In this document: positions 33,600-35,671 of the stretch, in pieces | Layout of the letters: every line of letters starts with the position of its first letter | Numbering within the stretch: position 1 is the first letter of the stretch | Origin: a phage | Reading direction: 5' to 3' (one strand) | DNA length: 64,000 nucleotides | Sequence record: PZ166176.1 | Notes under the pieces: generated by a model | Databases searched by the model: none | Told to the model about the DNA's origin: nothing | The model's input: only the letters and a program-made list of their open reading frames with translations | Made by a program: the position numbers and the translations under genes

Positions 33600-34027
33600 C
33601 ACCTTACCTAGTAAGTAAACTTGCTCTACGAGCCTCTTATGAAGCTTATGTTATAGGCTATACTATTGCTACCTGTTTAAGCAAGGTTTTTGCACACAGA
33701 AAATAATTTTTAATAAAACTCTTGACTTTTGTGTTCGAAGTATGCTACCCTAGAAATCTATTAACGAGCGCAGCGAGTTAAGGTTTTAGGTTGTTGATGT
33801 AGTACTCTGTACTCAAGTACTGTACTCCGTACTAGATTAATAATTATTAAATATTAATAATAAATAATTATTAGATCTAACAAACAGGTACAGTGTATCA
33901 GAACTGGTACGTACAGATCAACTTCTATCAATTAAAAATAAAATAATAAATTATTATAAATAATACTTGATCTATAGATCAGTATGAAGTACAGTACGGA
34001 ACATCTTAACAAGAATGGAGGTGTGCA
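33600..34027. promoter_or_regulatory. divergent intergenic control region / candidate replication origin
   Basis: No ORF; five GTACT repeats at about 33802..33833, AT-rich near-palindrome about 33838..33873, further GTAC motifs and four GATC sites (about 33874, 33916, 33969, 33977), AT-rich tract 33932..33966. Confidence 0.45.
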
Positions 34028-34213
34028 ATGATTAGCGAGAATCCGTGCAAATGGCATCATGTGCCTATTAAAGATTGTATGTCTTGTAATCCACGTTCTA
34101 TTTATAACATTGCATCTTATGATGATGACAATGTGTTAGACGATGATGAAGGCTGGGAGGATTTAGATTGGACTGGTTATGAAACCAAAAAGGATAAAAT
34201 TATTCCTAGTTGA
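34028..34213 (+). CDS. hypothetical small protein
   Basis: Track ORF 61 aa, first rightward gene. Confidence 0.4.
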   Translation: MISENPCKWHHVPIKDCMSCNPRSIYNIASYDDDNVLDDDEGWEDLDWTGYETKKDKIIPS

Positions 34214-34250: not shown

Positions 34251-34502
34251 ATGCCGATCACTCCCCATTTGGGGTTCGAAGGATATATGCAAAATAGCTT
34301 TTATTTTAGGTGCCGTGCTTGTAATAGGCATTTGACAAACCACTCCAGACGTGATAAAAATGGAGTCATCAAGGAATCAGACCTCTGTTCTATTTGCACA
34401 GGTTTGGCTTTTGATGATAGTCCCGAAAGGGTTTATCAGCATCAATGTATAACAGACGTTCTCGTGTCAAACTTGGTAGAGGACGAACAACTAACAGATT
34501 AG
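34251..34502 (+). CDS. small zinc-finger protein
   Basis: CRACNRH ... CSICTG cysteine pairs. Confidence 0.4.
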   Translation: MPITPHLGFEGYMQNSFYFRCRACNRHLTNHSRRDKNGVIKESDLCSICTGLAFDDSPERVYQHQCITDVLVSNLVEDEQLTD

Positions 34503-34510
34503 GAGGAACA

Positions 34511-34759
34511 ATGTCTCTATTAGAAAAACACGTGTTTGAAGATGGTAACGGCAATGCAGTTTTTCTTTTCCATCCAGAAAAATACACATCTGAAAACAAT
34601 GGTACAACTTCTATTGTAATCACTAAAGATGTTAAAGTTATTGATTTCTTGGCTCTGATGCGAGAGATGGATCTTGAAATTAATACTTTTAACGCAGAAG
34701 CTTTGGTTGTTGCTCTTCTGGAAAAGAAAGATAGTGAAGAAGTAGCAGAATATGCTTAA
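34511..34759 (+). CDS. hypothetical small protein
   Basis: Start at internal ATG (MSLLEK) after TTAGGAGGAACA. Confidence 0.4.
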   Translation: MSLLEKHVFEDGNGNAVFLFHPEKYTSENNGTTSIVITKDVKVIDFLALMREMDLEINTFNAEALVVALLEKKDSEEVAEYA

Positions 34760-34766
34760 ATAACTA

Positions 34767-34797
34767 TTGACAAACGTATCCTTCATATGTTAGGATA
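34767..34797 (+). promoter_or_regulatory. sigma70-like promoter (ctaTTGACAa ... TGtTAGGAT)
   Basis: TTGACA then extended -10-like TGtTAGGAT; same motif recurs at 35354 and 36103. Confidence 0.45.
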
Positions 34798-34807
34798 CGT
34801 TCATCAA

Positions 34808-35001
34808 GTGTGGTAACAGGGTCGTTGACTTTTGTTAAGAGGGGCTTGCACTGCGGTAGTGTTAGAGACTACTTCTTCAGAGGTTAGCTACCAAAGAGGA
34901 AAAGGAATAGTCTCGGCTCAAGAACTTTTACGCTGAAAGTTGGGCTTGGTCTTAGAGAATGTAGCGGTTCTCTACAATCGTCAGCGTCTCTGTTACCACA
35001 T
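34808..35001 (+). ncRNA. structured RNA of about 190 nt preceding the first tRNA
   Basis: 5' GTGGTAACAG (34810..34819) pairs perfectly with 3' CTGTTACCAC (34990..34999); no ORF; sits between promoter and tRNA. Confidence 0.35.
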
Positions 35002-35005
35002 TTAT

Positions 35006-35080
35006 GGCCCTGTAGCTCAATGGGAGAGCTGTCGGCTCATAACCGATAGGTAGCTGGATCGAAACCAGCCAGGGCCACCA
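35006..35080 (+). tRNA. tRNA with CAT anticodon (resembles tRNA-Ile2 / elongator Met)
   Basis: Hand-folded cloverleaf: acceptor GGCCCTG/CAGGGCC, anticodon loop CTCATAA, T-loop ATCGAAA, encoded CCA. Confidence 0.7.
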
Positions 35081-35082
35081 AC

Positions 35083-35157
35083 GTCTTTATGGTGTAATGG
35101 ATAGCACAGGAGTCTTCTAAACTCTTAGTCAAGGTTCGATTCCTTGTAAAGACACCA
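35083..35157 (+). tRNA. tRNA-Arg (TCT)
   Basis: Acceptor GTCTTTA/TAAAGAC, anticodon loop CTTCTAA, T-arm CAAGG-TTCGATT-CCTTG, CCA. Confidence 0.7.
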
Positions 35158-35158
35158 G

Positions 35159-35342
35159 AACATTTTAACATGAATTAGCTCAAGTGATTTGAACCCACTA
35201 CTGATCATGGTGGCAGAGAATGAGGCAAGTATGTCAGACATTATAAACAAAGGCCACGGTTATATTAGAAGACATAAATGCTCGAAGAGCACCGTTCGTT
35301 GAGAACGGGGGTTGGTGGAGTCACCATTCATGGTAAAATGTT
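35159..35342 (+). ncRNA. structured RNA of about 185 nt following tRNA-Arg
   Basis: 5' AACATTTTAACATGAAT pairs with 3' ATTCATGGTAAAATGTT (one mismatch); no ORF. Confidence 0.35.
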
Positions 35343-35353
35343 TTAAAAAACTA

Positions 35354-35384
35354 TTGACAACTAACATTATTTTATGTTAGATTA
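35354..35384 (+). promoter_or_regulatory. sigma70-like promoter (ctaTTGACAa ... TGtTAGATT)
   Basis: TTGACA and extended -10-like element upstream of tRNA-Ser. Confidence 0.45.
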
Positions 35385-35391
35385 TAAGTAT

Positions 35392-35482
35392 GGAAGGGCA
35401 AATCGACGTGGCGACGAAAACGGTCTTGAAAACCGCCGAGCTTGAAAGAGCCTTGGGAGTTCGACTCTCCCTCCTTCCGCCA
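35392..35482 (+). tRNA. tRNA-Ser (TGA), long variable arm
   Basis: Acceptor GGAAGGG/TCCTTCC, anticodon loop CTTGAAA, long variable arm, T-arm GGGAG-TTCGACT-CTCCC, G73-CCA; D-arm atypical. Confidence 0.55.
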
Positions 35483-35486
35483 GATT

Positions 35487-35572
35487 GGTAGATTGGTGAA
35501 ATGGTAGCCACGACAGTTTGCTAAACTGTAGTCGGAAACGGCGTGTAGGTTCGAGTCCTACATCTACCGCCA
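35487..35572 (+). tRNA. tRNA-Ser (GCT), long variable arm
   Basis: Acceptor GGTAGAT/ATCTACC, anticodon stem ACAGT/ACTGT loop TTGCTAA, variable arm AGTCGGAAACGGCGT, G73-CCA. Confidence 0.7.
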
Positions 35573-35578
35573 AATTAA

Positions 35579-35664
35579 GATGAGTTGGCTGAATGGTTTA
35601 AGCGGCGGACTGTTAATCCGTGTTCGAAAGAACGATATAGGTTCAAATCCTATACTCATCGCCA
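35579..35664 (+). tRNA. class II (long variable arm) tRNA with GTT (Asn) anticodon; identity ambiguous
   Basis: Acceptor GATGAGT/ACTCATC (7 bp), anticodon stem GCGGA/TCCGT loop CTGTTAA, variable arm GTTCGAAAGAACGAT with GTTC/GAAC stem, T-arm ATAGG-TTCAAAT-CCTAT, G73-CCA. Confidence 0.55.
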
Positions 35665-35671
35665 GAATTAT

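What the first reader, a model, noticed from the sequence alone, without database searches (positions are those of the whole stretch)
34808..35001. Structured RNA of about 190 nt between the array promoter and the first tRNA
No ORF; the ends form a perfect 10-bp helix (GTGGTAACAG / CTGTTACCAC) that extends with wobble pairs, enclosing about 170 nt; it sits immediately upstream of the first tRNA, so RNase P processing would release it. T4 and T5 tRNA clusters are known to contain stable small RNAs of unknown function; this may be an analogue.
Basis: partly seen in the sequence, partly recalled or inferred. Interest (0 to 1): 0.45.

Follow-up and report, generated by a model that had tools for sequence, protein, structure and literature searches.

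The report
Structured leader RNA in phage tRNA array
A roughly 200-base stretch between a promoter and the first tRNA gene of an E. coli phage (phAPEC8 group) encodes a conserved, elaborately folded non-coding RNA of unknown function. It matches no described RNA family and resembles in kind the unexplained small RNAs of the phage T4 tRNA cluster.

Summary
GTGGTAACAG (34810-34819) pairs with CTGTTACCAC (34990-34999) inside a 26-pair closing helix (34806-34835 with 34974-35003). This is the longest inverted repeat in the 64-kb window. The + strand folds at -76 kcal/mol (z = -5.3).

The window is a Phapecoctavirus (phAPEC8-like E. coli myophage). Three sequence variants of the element were found. 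Seventy predicted pairs are kept in 99.4% of cases, and 10 pairs in 6 of 10 helices change on both sides. The closing helix itself never varies.

The short ORFs inside show no coding signature. No Rfam family, tRNA model, E. coli genome or GTDB genome matches it.

The element fills the whole space between a sigma-70-type promoter (34767-34796) and tRNA-Met (35006). The likeliest reading is a discrete stable RNA. Its 5' end would be the transcription start and its 3' end would be cut by RNase P. Expression, processing and function are not shown.

It occurs in 71 phage records, the same number that carry the Phapecoctavirus-type upstream gene. It was not found in the tRNA regions of relatives outside the genus that were checked. 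A second, more widespread structured RNA lies at 35158-35343.

The parts
34767..34796 (+). Sigma-70-type promoter: -35 TTGACA (34767-34772), TG (34788-34789), -10 TAGGAT (34791-34796). It belongs to a TATTGACAA promoter-like family.
   Evidence: 10 of 12 matches, TG present. The -35 and the extended -10 are kept in the divergent variants (TAAGAT). TATTGACAA occurs 8 times in the window against 1.4 expected, on the strand of the local genes.
34803..35005 (+). The whole predicted RNA, about 200 nt. The 5' end is the predicted transcription start (A34803 to A34806). The 3' end is the base before tRNA-Met.
   Evidence: The start is inferred from promoter spacing and the 3' end from the tRNA-Met start. 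The RNA folds as an independent domain inside the longer precursor. The covariance model scores 214.6 bits on 34805-35003.
34806..34835 (+). P1, 5' arm of the 26-bp closing helix.
   Evidence: It is 97% identical between variants while the interior is 75% identical. Twenty-three of its 26 pairs never vary.
34974..35003 (+). P1, 3' arm. It contains CTGTTACCAC (34990-34999).
34836..34840 (+). Invariant junction UAAGA between P1 and P2.
   Evidence: Invariant columns in the alignment.
34841..34845 (+). P2, 5' strand. It pairs with 34949-34953 and closes a four-way junction holding hairpins Ha, Hb and Hc.
   Evidence: One pair changes on both sides and three on one side, and all stay paired (helix 2).
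34949..34953 (+). P2, 3' strand.
34848..34862 (+). Hairpin Ha: 5 bp with a loop whose sequence varies.
   Evidence: Two of its five pairs change on both sides (CACUG/UAGUG, CAUCG/GAUG, CACA/UGUG, helix 3).
34865..34914 (+). Long hairpin Hb with an invariant tip GGUUAGCUACC (34882-34892).
   Evidence: Helices 4-7, with three pairs changed on both sides. The tip is invariant.
34915..34946 (+). Hairpin Hc (GGCUCA, AGA bulge, ACWUUUACGCUGAAWGU, UGGGCU). It is invariant apart from one covarying pair.
   Evidence: Helices 8-9. The pair at columns 122/134 switches between A-U and U-A.
34954..34973 (+). Hairpin P3. Its stem covaries. Its loop holds an invariant GUAGC (34961-34965) that is complementary to GCUAC (34887-34891) in the Hb tip.
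   Evidence: Helix 10, with 3 of 5 pairs changed on both sides. The loop-loop pairing is 5 of 5 in all sequences but invariant, so it is neither supported nor refuted.
35006..35080 (+). tRNA-Met (CAU). Its 5' end would be the RNase P site that defines the 3' end of the RNA.
   Evidence: ARAGORN. Rfam tRNA model, 64.5 bits.
35083..35157 (+). tRNA-Arg (UCU), the next gene of the same predicted transcript.
   Evidence: No terminator-like site lies between 34800 and 36826 outside tRNA genes.

Best explanation
This is a gene for a structured non-coding RNA of about 200 nt, specific to the genus Phapecoctavirus. Shown: the fold is real and under selection. A 26-bp closing helix carries a four-way junction (P2 with hairpins Ha, Hb, Hc) plus one further hairpin (P3). 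Stems change by compensatory substitutions. The closing helix, one junction, the Hb tip, hairpin Hc and a GUAGC loop are invariant. The element is on the tRNA strand, is not protein-coding, is single-copy and matches no described RNA family. Inferred from layout: host sigma-70 RNA polymerase starts at about 34803-34806, within 0-3 nt of the base of the helix. The RNA is made as the first product of a precursor that continues into tRNA-Met, tRNA-Arg and beyond. RNase P cutting at 35005/35006 frees it with a 2-nt 3' overhang. With both ends locked in a long helix it should resist 5'-end-dependent RNase E and 3' exonucleases and accumulate as a stable RNA. Inferred more weakly: it acts in trans. 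The invariant loops and the sequence-invariant helix would serve as contact surfaces for a protein or RNA partner, as a scaffold or decoy. The partner is unknown.
For: Structure: z = -5.3. It is the longest inverted repeat in the window. In five distinct sequences (three variants), 70 pairs are 99.4% paired, 10 pairs change on both sides in 6 of 10 helices, 0 of 500 shuffles reach this, and slid controls give 0-3 such pairs and 37-45% pairing. Strand: the + strand folds at -76 kcal/mol against -53.7 for the - strand, because of G-U pairs. Not coding: differences fall 6/9/6 on codon positions 1/2/3 of the 34-aa ORF, with many radical replacements. Layout: the promoter is at 34767-34796 and belongs to a promoter-word family enriched 6-fold. 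The other two promoters of the array (35354-35383 and 36103-36132) begin 2-5 nt before a tRNA, so the space after this promoter is filled by an RNA gene in the same way. The RNA and the two tRNAs fold as separate domains in the precursor. Retention: the element occurs in 71 records, the same number that carry the Phapecoctavirus-type upstream ORF. Precedent: T4 RNAC and RNAD lie in the T4 tRNA cluster, are stable, and have unknown function (PMC3014915; PMC9697503). A second RNA with the same layout at 35158-35343 has a closing helix that does covary across phage subfamilies.
Against: No transcript, end-mapping or stability data exist for this phage group in the searched literature. The closing helix shows no covariation, so its formation as RNA rests on thermodynamics and on analogy with the neighbouring RNA. 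Its sequence invariance could reflect a function other than end protection, such as RNase III processing or a DNA-level role. A helix of about 23-26 bp is long enough to be an RNase III substrate (general knowledge), which would change the ends proposed here. Only three variants exist, so the covariation statistics rest on few independent events. No partner or target was found: matches of 11 nt or more elsewhere in the window are at chance level.
Confidence: 0.62

Rival explanations
1. It is a cis-acting 5' leader or processing stalk of the tRNA operon with no job of its own. The long helix would be an RNase III site, like the stems that flank rRNAs and the RNase III step in T4 tRNA precursor processing. 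It would set the timing or efficiency of tRNA-Met/tRNA-Arg maturation, or shield the untranslated leader from Rho and RNase E, and the excised piece would be degraded.
For: The helix is about 26 bp and sequence-invariant while the interior drifts. That fits recognition of the duplex itself. The element is physically joined to the tRNA precursor.
Against: A stalk does not need a 140-nt interior with a four-way junction, invariant loops and compensatory changes in five interior helices. The other two promoters of the same array manage with leaders of 2-5 nt. Sister genera place the promoter directly before the first tRNA with no such leader.
Confidence: 0.2
2. It is a DNA-level element: terminal inverted repeats of a small mobile cassette (MITE-like), an operator pair, or part of a replication origin near the GC-skew switch at about 34 kb.
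For: The inverted-repeat arms are invariant and flank a variable interior. phiWec179 and an IMG/VR contig have 100% identical flanks but 24 differences inside, which looks like a swapped cassette. The cumulative GC-skew minimum lies about 0.8 kb upstream.
Against: Pairing depends on G-U pairs that exist only on the + strand, and the two strands differ by 22 kcal/mol. Compensatory changes occur in interior hairpins, which a DNA repeat would not need. There is a single copy per genome and no copy in E. coli or GTDB genomes.
Confidence: 0.04
3. It encodes a small protein: the 34-aa TTG ORF at 34832-34936, which several GenBank records annotate as a hypothetical protein.
For: The ORF stays open with the same stop codon in the divergent variant. 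Some records annotate it.
Against: There is no Shine-Dalgarno sequence upstream. Differences are spread 6/9/6 over codon positions, and about a third of residues are replaced, many radically. The same substitutions are explained as compensatory base-pair changes.
Confidence: 0.02
4. It is a decayed relic of one or two tRNA genes, or of a tRNA-like RNA such as T4 rnaC, with no present function.
For: It sits in a tRNA array, and the core is a cloverleaf-like four-way junction.
Against: ARAGORN and the Rfam tRNA models give nothing, even at E <= 10 on the isolated element. It has no T-loop motif. A relic would not keep 99.4% pairing through 17-25% divergence.
Confidence: 0.03
5. It is the template or guide RNA of a protein machine: a retron-like or UG27-type RT template, an omega or bridge RNA, or an anti-CRISPR repeat mimic.
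For: The size (150-200 nt) and the closing helix recall retron and UG27 units. Phage ncRNA arrays that template cDNA exist (bioRxiv 10.64898/2026.09.22.753630).
Against: No reverse transcriptase, TnpB/IscB or recombinase is annotated next to it, nor in the parts of Phapecoctavirus records that were read: the first 50 kb of PsgM04F, a 45-kb stretch of ECO340P1 in which nearly every gene is annotated only as hypothetical, and the flanks of the tRNA array. I did not find the UG27 motif AUCN7UANAG when reading the sequence. No Rfam CRISPR repeat model hits the element.
Confidence: 0.02

Closest known systems
Phage T4 RNAC (species 1, 139 nt) and RNAD (species 2, 119 nt)
   Same: Both are small non-coding RNAs encoded inside a phage tRNA gene cluster, on the tRNA strand, a few bases from a tRNA (T4: tRNA-Arg, rnaD, rnaC). 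The T4 RNAs are stable and of unknown function (PMC3014915; Northern blot in PMC9697503).
   Different: There is no homology: the covariance model finds nothing in the T4 tRNA region. T4 rnaC ends in a tRNA-like T arm (CCGGGUUCGAAUCCCGG) and acceptor-like stem, which this RNA lacks. This RNA is longer, sits first after a promoter instead of after the last tRNA, and is closed by a 26-bp helix.
The neighbouring RNA at 35158-35343 and 'RNA-X' of Salmonella phage PVP-SE1 (both undescribed, found here)
   Same: All are about 185-195 nt with a 17-26-bp closing helix around a multi-branched core. All are packed 0-6 nt from tRNAs or from each other in the tRNA arrays of rV5-like phages. All fold far better than shuffles.
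   Different: They are three unrelated sequence families. The model of this RNA does not hit the other two, and blastn does not link them. Their distributions differ: 71, 98 and 16 phage records.
ROOL and GOLLD RNAs
   Same: They are structured RNAs of unknown function encoded by phages and prophages, often next to tRNA islands. They use kissing loops (bioRxiv 10.1101/2024.12.08.627333). This RNA has an invariant self-complementary loop word (UAGCUA) and a complementary loop pair.
   Different: ROOL and GOLLD are three to four times larger. Their Rfam models do not match here even at E <= 10. Nothing shows that this RNA forms multimers.
Spacer-derived RNAs of host tRNA operons (E. coli RtT RNA of the tyrT operon; the 3'ETS-leuZ sponge). 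Cited from my own knowledge.
   Same: Functional or stable RNAs released from tRNA precursors by the tRNA-processing nucleases.
   Different: Those are short or repeat-derived. The sponge acts through single-stranded seed pairing with Hfq, whereas this RNA is almost fully base-paired. No Rfam match and no E. coli homolog.
Bacterial Y RNA-like RNAs (YrlA)
   Same: A stem formed by the 5' and 3' ends carries a cloverleaf-like module. Some are phage-encoded near tRNAs (my own knowledge).
   Different: The YrlA model (RF02553) does not hit the element. It has no T-loop or D-loop mimicry.

Membership tests
Stable small RNAs of phage tRNA clusters (T4 RNAC/RNAD kind) | Encoded inside a phage tRNA gene cluster, on the tRNA strand, non-coding | tested here: met
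   It lies between the array promoter and tRNA-Met, on the + strand, with no coding signature.
Stable small RNAs of phage tRNA clusters (T4 RNAC/RNAD kind) | Co-transcribed with tRNAs and released as a discrete, stable RNA | not testable with these tools
   Only the layout could be read: the promoter ends at 34796, the helix spans 34806-35003 and the tRNA starts at 35006. No transcript data were found.
Stable small RNAs of phage tRNA clusters (T4 RNAC/RNAD kind) | Sequence or structure homology to T4 rnaC or rnaD | tested here: not met
   Model R1 finds nothing in the T4 tRNA region at E <= 10. rnaC is tRNA-like.
tRNA or tRNA-like RNA | Match to tRNA covariance models or ARAGORN; T-loop and acceptor features | tested here: not met
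   no hit on 34800-35006.
Any Rfam 15 family (including 6S, YrlA, GOLLD, ROOL, RtT, self-cleaving ribozymes, riboswitches, CRISPR repeats) | cmscan match at or near the family threshold | tested here: not met
   Nothing at gathering score. At E <= 10 on the isolated element, the only hit is an 11-nt chance match.
Conserved structured RNA (general criterion) | Base pairs kept through compensatory substitutions in homologs | tested here: met
   Ten pairs change on both sides, 99.4% of cells are paired, and 0 of 500 shuffles reach this. The closing helix alone is uninformative because it is invariant.
MITE / small mobile inverted-repeat element | Multiple copies per genome or spread among genomes | tested here: not met
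   One place per record in 71 phage records. No other copy in the window, none in E. coli genomes, and no pattern match in GTDB genomes.
Retron / UG27-type RT-templating ncRNA | Adjacent reverse transcriptase gene | tested here: not met
   No RT is annotated within several kb in four records, nor in 50 kb of PsgM04F. The whole genome was not scanned protein by protein.
Small-protein gene | Codon-position bias of substitutions and a ribosome-binding site | tested here: not met
   (6/9/6). No Shine-Dalgarno sequence before the TTG at 34832.

The most novel reading that the evidence does not exclude
This RNA, the neighbouring RNA at 35158-35343 and PVP-SE1 'RNA-X' together form an unrecognised class. 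They are long-stem RNAs of about 190 nt that large enterobacterial myophages excise from tRNA-array transcripts using the host tRNA-processing enzymes, and that act in trans as effectors. They might act as decoys or scaffolds for a host nuclease or defence sensor, or as self-assembling RNA particles built through the invariant complementary loops (GCUAC with GUAGC, and the palindrome UAGCUA). The swapped, fast-changing interior between otherwise identical genomes would then reflect an arms race.
Probability: 0.2. Interest if true: 0.75.

Novelty: new member of a known kind. Interest (0 to 1): 0.5.

Why it matters
Small stable RNAs in phage tRNA clusters have been known in T4 since the 1970s (my own knowledge), and a 2010 review still lists their roles as unknown (PMC3014915). 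This element is a well-delimited new example in phages that grow on laboratory E. coli and are used in phage-therapy work. It has a secondary structure backed by covariation, clear invariant surfaces to mutate, and natural variants to swap. Two further unrelated RNAs of the same build turned up in related phages. That suggests tRNA arrays are a general production line for phage non-coding RNAs, and that genome annotations which call these stretches 'hypothetical protein' or leave them blank are missing genes. If one of these RNAs proved to bind a host nuclease or immune sensor, it would open a new type of phage counter-measure.

Tried and rejected
- Rfam at gathering score and at E <= 10, on the array and on the isolated element: nothing.
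- blastn against 5,426 E. coli genomes: no match.
- Two-block pattern against GTDB genomes: no match.
- IMG/VR scan with the loop 15-mer: 53 loci, all chance matches in coding genes. One lay beside a tRNA in an unrelated 155-kb contig (L035) and also proved unrelated.
- IMG/VR scan with the two-arm pattern: one true homolog (L065) and three chance hits.
- Metagenome scan with a 19-mer: two true homologs that add no new variant and three chance hits.
- Covariance model against the tRNA regions of phi92, Citrobacter Tr1, PVP-SE1, GAP31, 4MG and T4, and against the first 50 kb of PsgM04F: nothing.
- Search for a paralogous link to the neighbouring RNA or to PVP-SE1 RNA-X: none.
- Search for complementary targets in the window: matches at chance level.
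- Neighbouring small ORFs: only PHROG families of unknown function.
- Ideas rejected on reading the sequence: CsrA sponge (the GGA motifs are not conserved between variants), boxA antitermination site, anticodon-loop mimic and the UG27 motif.
- Literature searches for phAPEC8 or Phapecoctavirus transcriptomes or ncRNAs found nothing relevant.

Full report
**Origin of the window.** The 800 bases around the finding are 100% identical to Escherichia phage SKA64 and 99.8% identical to phAPEC8. The window therefore comes from a Phapecoctavirus (subfamily Stephanstirmvirinae), a myophage of E. coli of about 150 kb. The finding lies at the head of a tRNA array of ten detected tRNA genes at 35006-36710, all on the + strand. 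The array begins about 0.8 kb after the point where gene direction and GC skew switch.

**The observation.**
- The two 10-mers are at 34810-34819 and 34990-34999, as stated.
- They are the core of a much longer helix, 34806-34835 with 34974-35003. It has 26 pairs, interrupted by one bulge and one small internal loop.
- This is the longest inverted repeat within 300 nt anywhere in the window.
- The 198-nt segment folds at -76 kcal/mol, 5.3 standard deviations better than dinucleotide shuffles.
- The opposite strand folds 22 kcal/mol worse, because many pairs are G-U. The structure therefore belongs to an RNA read in the direction of the tRNAs.

**Conservation and covariation.**
- blastn finds the element in 71 phage records, once in each. 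The same number of records carry the Phapecoctavirus-type version of the upstream ORF.
- Most copies are at least 99% identical. Six records of the phiWec179 type are about 80% identical.
- An IMG/VR contig (L065) carries a third variant. Metagenome hits add no new variant.
- On five distinct sequences, RNAalifold predicts 70 pairs. Of all sequence-by-pair cells, 99.4% form a standard pair.
- Ten pairs in six of ten helices changed on both sides. No shuffle out of 500 reaches these values. Sliding the partners by 1-3 columns drops pairing to 37-45% and double changes to 0-3.
- The closing helix is different: 23 of its 26 pairs never vary. Its 5' arm is 97% identical between variants, while the interior is 75% identical and the upstream ORF 59%.
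- The interior helices are thus proven by covariation. The closing helix is supported only by thermodynamics and appears to be constrained in sequence as well.
- phiWec179 and L065 are 100% identical over the upstream ORF, the promoter, both helix arms, tRNA-Arg and the next RNA. Yet they differ at 24 of 139 interior positions. The interior has either been exchanged as a cassette or evolves unusually fast.

**What it is not.**
- The internal ORFs (25 and 34 aa, GTG/TTG starts) have no ribosome-binding site. The longer one has substitutions spread 6/9/6 over codon positions, with many radical replacements.
- No Rfam family matches, even at E <= 10 on the isolated element. ARAGORN sees no tRNA.
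- There is no homolog in E. coli genomes. A two-block pattern has no match in 185,579 GTDB genomes.
- There is no second copy in the window.
- No reverse transcriptase or transposon-type nuclease is annotated nearby.

**Layout and proposed biogenesis.**
- A promoter match lies at 34767-34796: TTGACA, 18 nt, TAGGAT, with TG upstream. Its -35 and extended -10 are kept in the divergent variants.
- The promoter carries the word TATTGACAA. This word occurs eight times in the window against 1.4 expected, always on the strand of the local genes.
- Normal spacing puts the transcription start at about 34803-34806. The helix begins at 34806 and ends at 35003, and tRNA-Met begins at 35006. The RNA therefore fills the whole space from start site to tRNA.
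- The other two promoters of the array (35354-35383 and 36103-36132) are followed within 2-5 nt by a tRNA or tRNA-like gene. In this array, promoters abut RNA genes directly.
- In the predicted precursor, the element and the two tRNAs fold as separate domains.
- The inference follows that RNase P cleavage at the 5' end of tRNA-Met releases an RNA of about 200 nt. Both of its ends would be buried in a long helix, a form expected to resist RNase E and 3' exonucleases. None of this is shown experimentally. A helix of this length could also be cut by RNase III, which is my own inference.

**Anatomy.**
- Inside P1 lies an invariant junction UAAGA (34836-34840).
- P2 (34841-34845 with 34949-34953) closes a four-way junction holding three hairpins.
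  - Ha (34848-34862) has a variable loop.
  - Hb (34865-34914) has an invariant tip GGUUAGCUACC (34882-34892).
  - Hc (34915-34946) is almost invariant.
- P3 (34954-34973) follows. Its stem covaries and its loop keeps GUAGC (34961-34965).
- GUAGC is complementary to GCUAC (34887-34891) in the Hb tip in all sequences. Both are invariant, so the contact is only a proposal.
- Variable stems combined with invariant loops and junctions are typical of RNAs whose loops make tertiary or intermolecular contacts. This is the basis for preferring a trans-acting, partner-binding role, and it is inference only.

**Distribution outside the genus.**
- In phi92 (Justusliebigvirus), the ortholog of the upstream ORF is followed at once by tRNAs.
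- In Citrobacter phage Tr1, it is followed by a 92-nt gap and then tRNAs.
- The covariance model finds nothing in those tRNA regions, nor in those of PVP-SE1, GAP31, 4MG and T4.
- As far as the data reach, the RNA is a genus-specific gain.

**Related finds.**
- Directly after tRNA-Arg lies a second structured element at 35158-35343. It has a 17-bp closing helix and folds with z = -4.4.
- This second element is found in 98 records, including Seunavirus phages of Salmonella, Cronobacter and E. coli at about 70% identity. Fifteen of its pairs change on both sides, including pairs of the closing helix.
- In PVP-SE1, the homolog of the second element is preceded by a tRNA-like RNA with insertions and by a third, unrelated long-stem RNA of 188 nt. 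They are strung together with 3-6-nt spacers.
- None of these is in Rfam.
- The three RNAs share build and context but not sequence.

**Comparison with known systems.**
- The nearest known kind is the pair of T4 small RNAs, RNAC and RNAD. They are encoded next to tRNA-Arg in the T4 tRNA cluster, are stable, and have unknown function (PMC3014915, PMC9697503). Membership by homology fails, so the likeness is of kind only.
- ROOL and GOLLD share the phage and tRNA-island context and unknown function (bioRxiv 10.1101/2024.12.08.627333), but they are far larger and do not match.

**Verdict.** The element is a real, conserved, structured non-coding RNA gene and a new family of a known kind. Its biogenesis is plausible but untested, and its function is unknown.

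Noticed in passing
window 35158-35343 (+): A second unannotated structured RNA lies directly after tRNA-Arg. It has a 17-bp closing helix (AACATTTTAACATGAAT / ATTCATGGTAAAATGTT), folds at -53.9 kcal/mol with z = -4.4, and has no Rfam match. It is found in 98 phage records, including Seunavirus (PVP-SE1, GAP31, 4MG) at about 70% identity. Fifteen pairs change on both sides. Some records annotate it as a 37-aa hypothetical protein. It is more widespread than the RNA under study.
   Followed up: partly
L059 (Salmonella phage PVP-SE1) 3700-3804 and 3808-3995: A tRNA-like RNA with inserted hairpins (T arm and CCA end; tRNA-Sec model 27 bits) is followed 3 nt later by a 188-nt RNA closed by a helix of about 20 bp. 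The homolog of the second RNA above comes next. The 188-nt RNA occurs in 16 Salmonella, Klebsiella and Enterobacter phage records and is unrelated in sequence to the others.
   Followed up: partly
window 35392-35483 (+): A tRNA-like gene that ARAGORN misses. It has an acceptor stem, a T arm, an encoded CCA, a long variable arm and the anticodon loop CUUGAAA (UGA, Ser). The Rfam tRNA-Sec model gives 37.4 bits, below threshold. Other records annotate it as tRNA-Ser or as a pseudo-tRNA. It starts 2 nt after the predicted start of the second promoter.
   Followed up: partly
window 34767-34782 / 34792-34807: A 16-nt inverted repeat spans the promoter of the RNA, from the -35 to the start site. In the phiWec179 variant, both arms change in step (AACGTATCCT/AGGATACGTT becomes AGCGTGTCTT/AAGATACGCT). 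It could be an operator, or a hairpin at the end of the upstream mRNA.
   Followed up: no
window 16897, 18141, 22175 (-); 34765, 35352, 36101, 41982, 56508 (+): The word TATTGACAA (a -35 with upstream TAT) occurs 8 times against 1.4 expected, always on the strand of the local genes. It is probably a family of host-polymerase promoters. Three of the eight drive the tRNA array.
   Followed up: partly
L001 (phiWec179) versus L065 (IMG/VR contig), aligned to window 34400-35343: The two genomes are 100% identical across the upstream ORF, promoter, helix arms, tRNA-Arg and the second RNA. They differ at 24 of 139 positions inside the RNA and at 3 positions in tRNA-Met. This is local mosaicism or fast evolution confined to the RNA interior.
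   Followed up: partly
window 33600-34030, including the palindrome at 33838-33873: An AT-rich intergenic region lies where gene direction switches and the cumulative GC skew reaches its minimum (about 34 kb). It contains an 18-nt AT palindrome. It may be a replication origin or a divergent early-promoter region.
   Followed up: no
window 35828-35915 (+): A long imperfect hairpin of about 88 nt lies directly after tRNA-Thr. It is identical in the window and phiWec179 and different in PsgM04F. Covariation is inconclusive.
   Followed up: partly
window 36826-36844 (+): The only convincing intrinsic terminator of the array (AGCCTCC TTATT GGAGGCT followed by TTTTGC) lies after the last tRNA. It causes weak sub-threshold RyhB and MicA hits at 36781-36851.
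   Followed up: no
phage records: Records named as Pseudomonas, Campylobacter, Acinetobacter and Klebsiella phages (PsgM04F, B15, ABPW7, ZCKP1) are 80-99.5% identical to E. coli Phapecoctavirus over this region. Host labels for these records may be unreliable.
   Followed up: no
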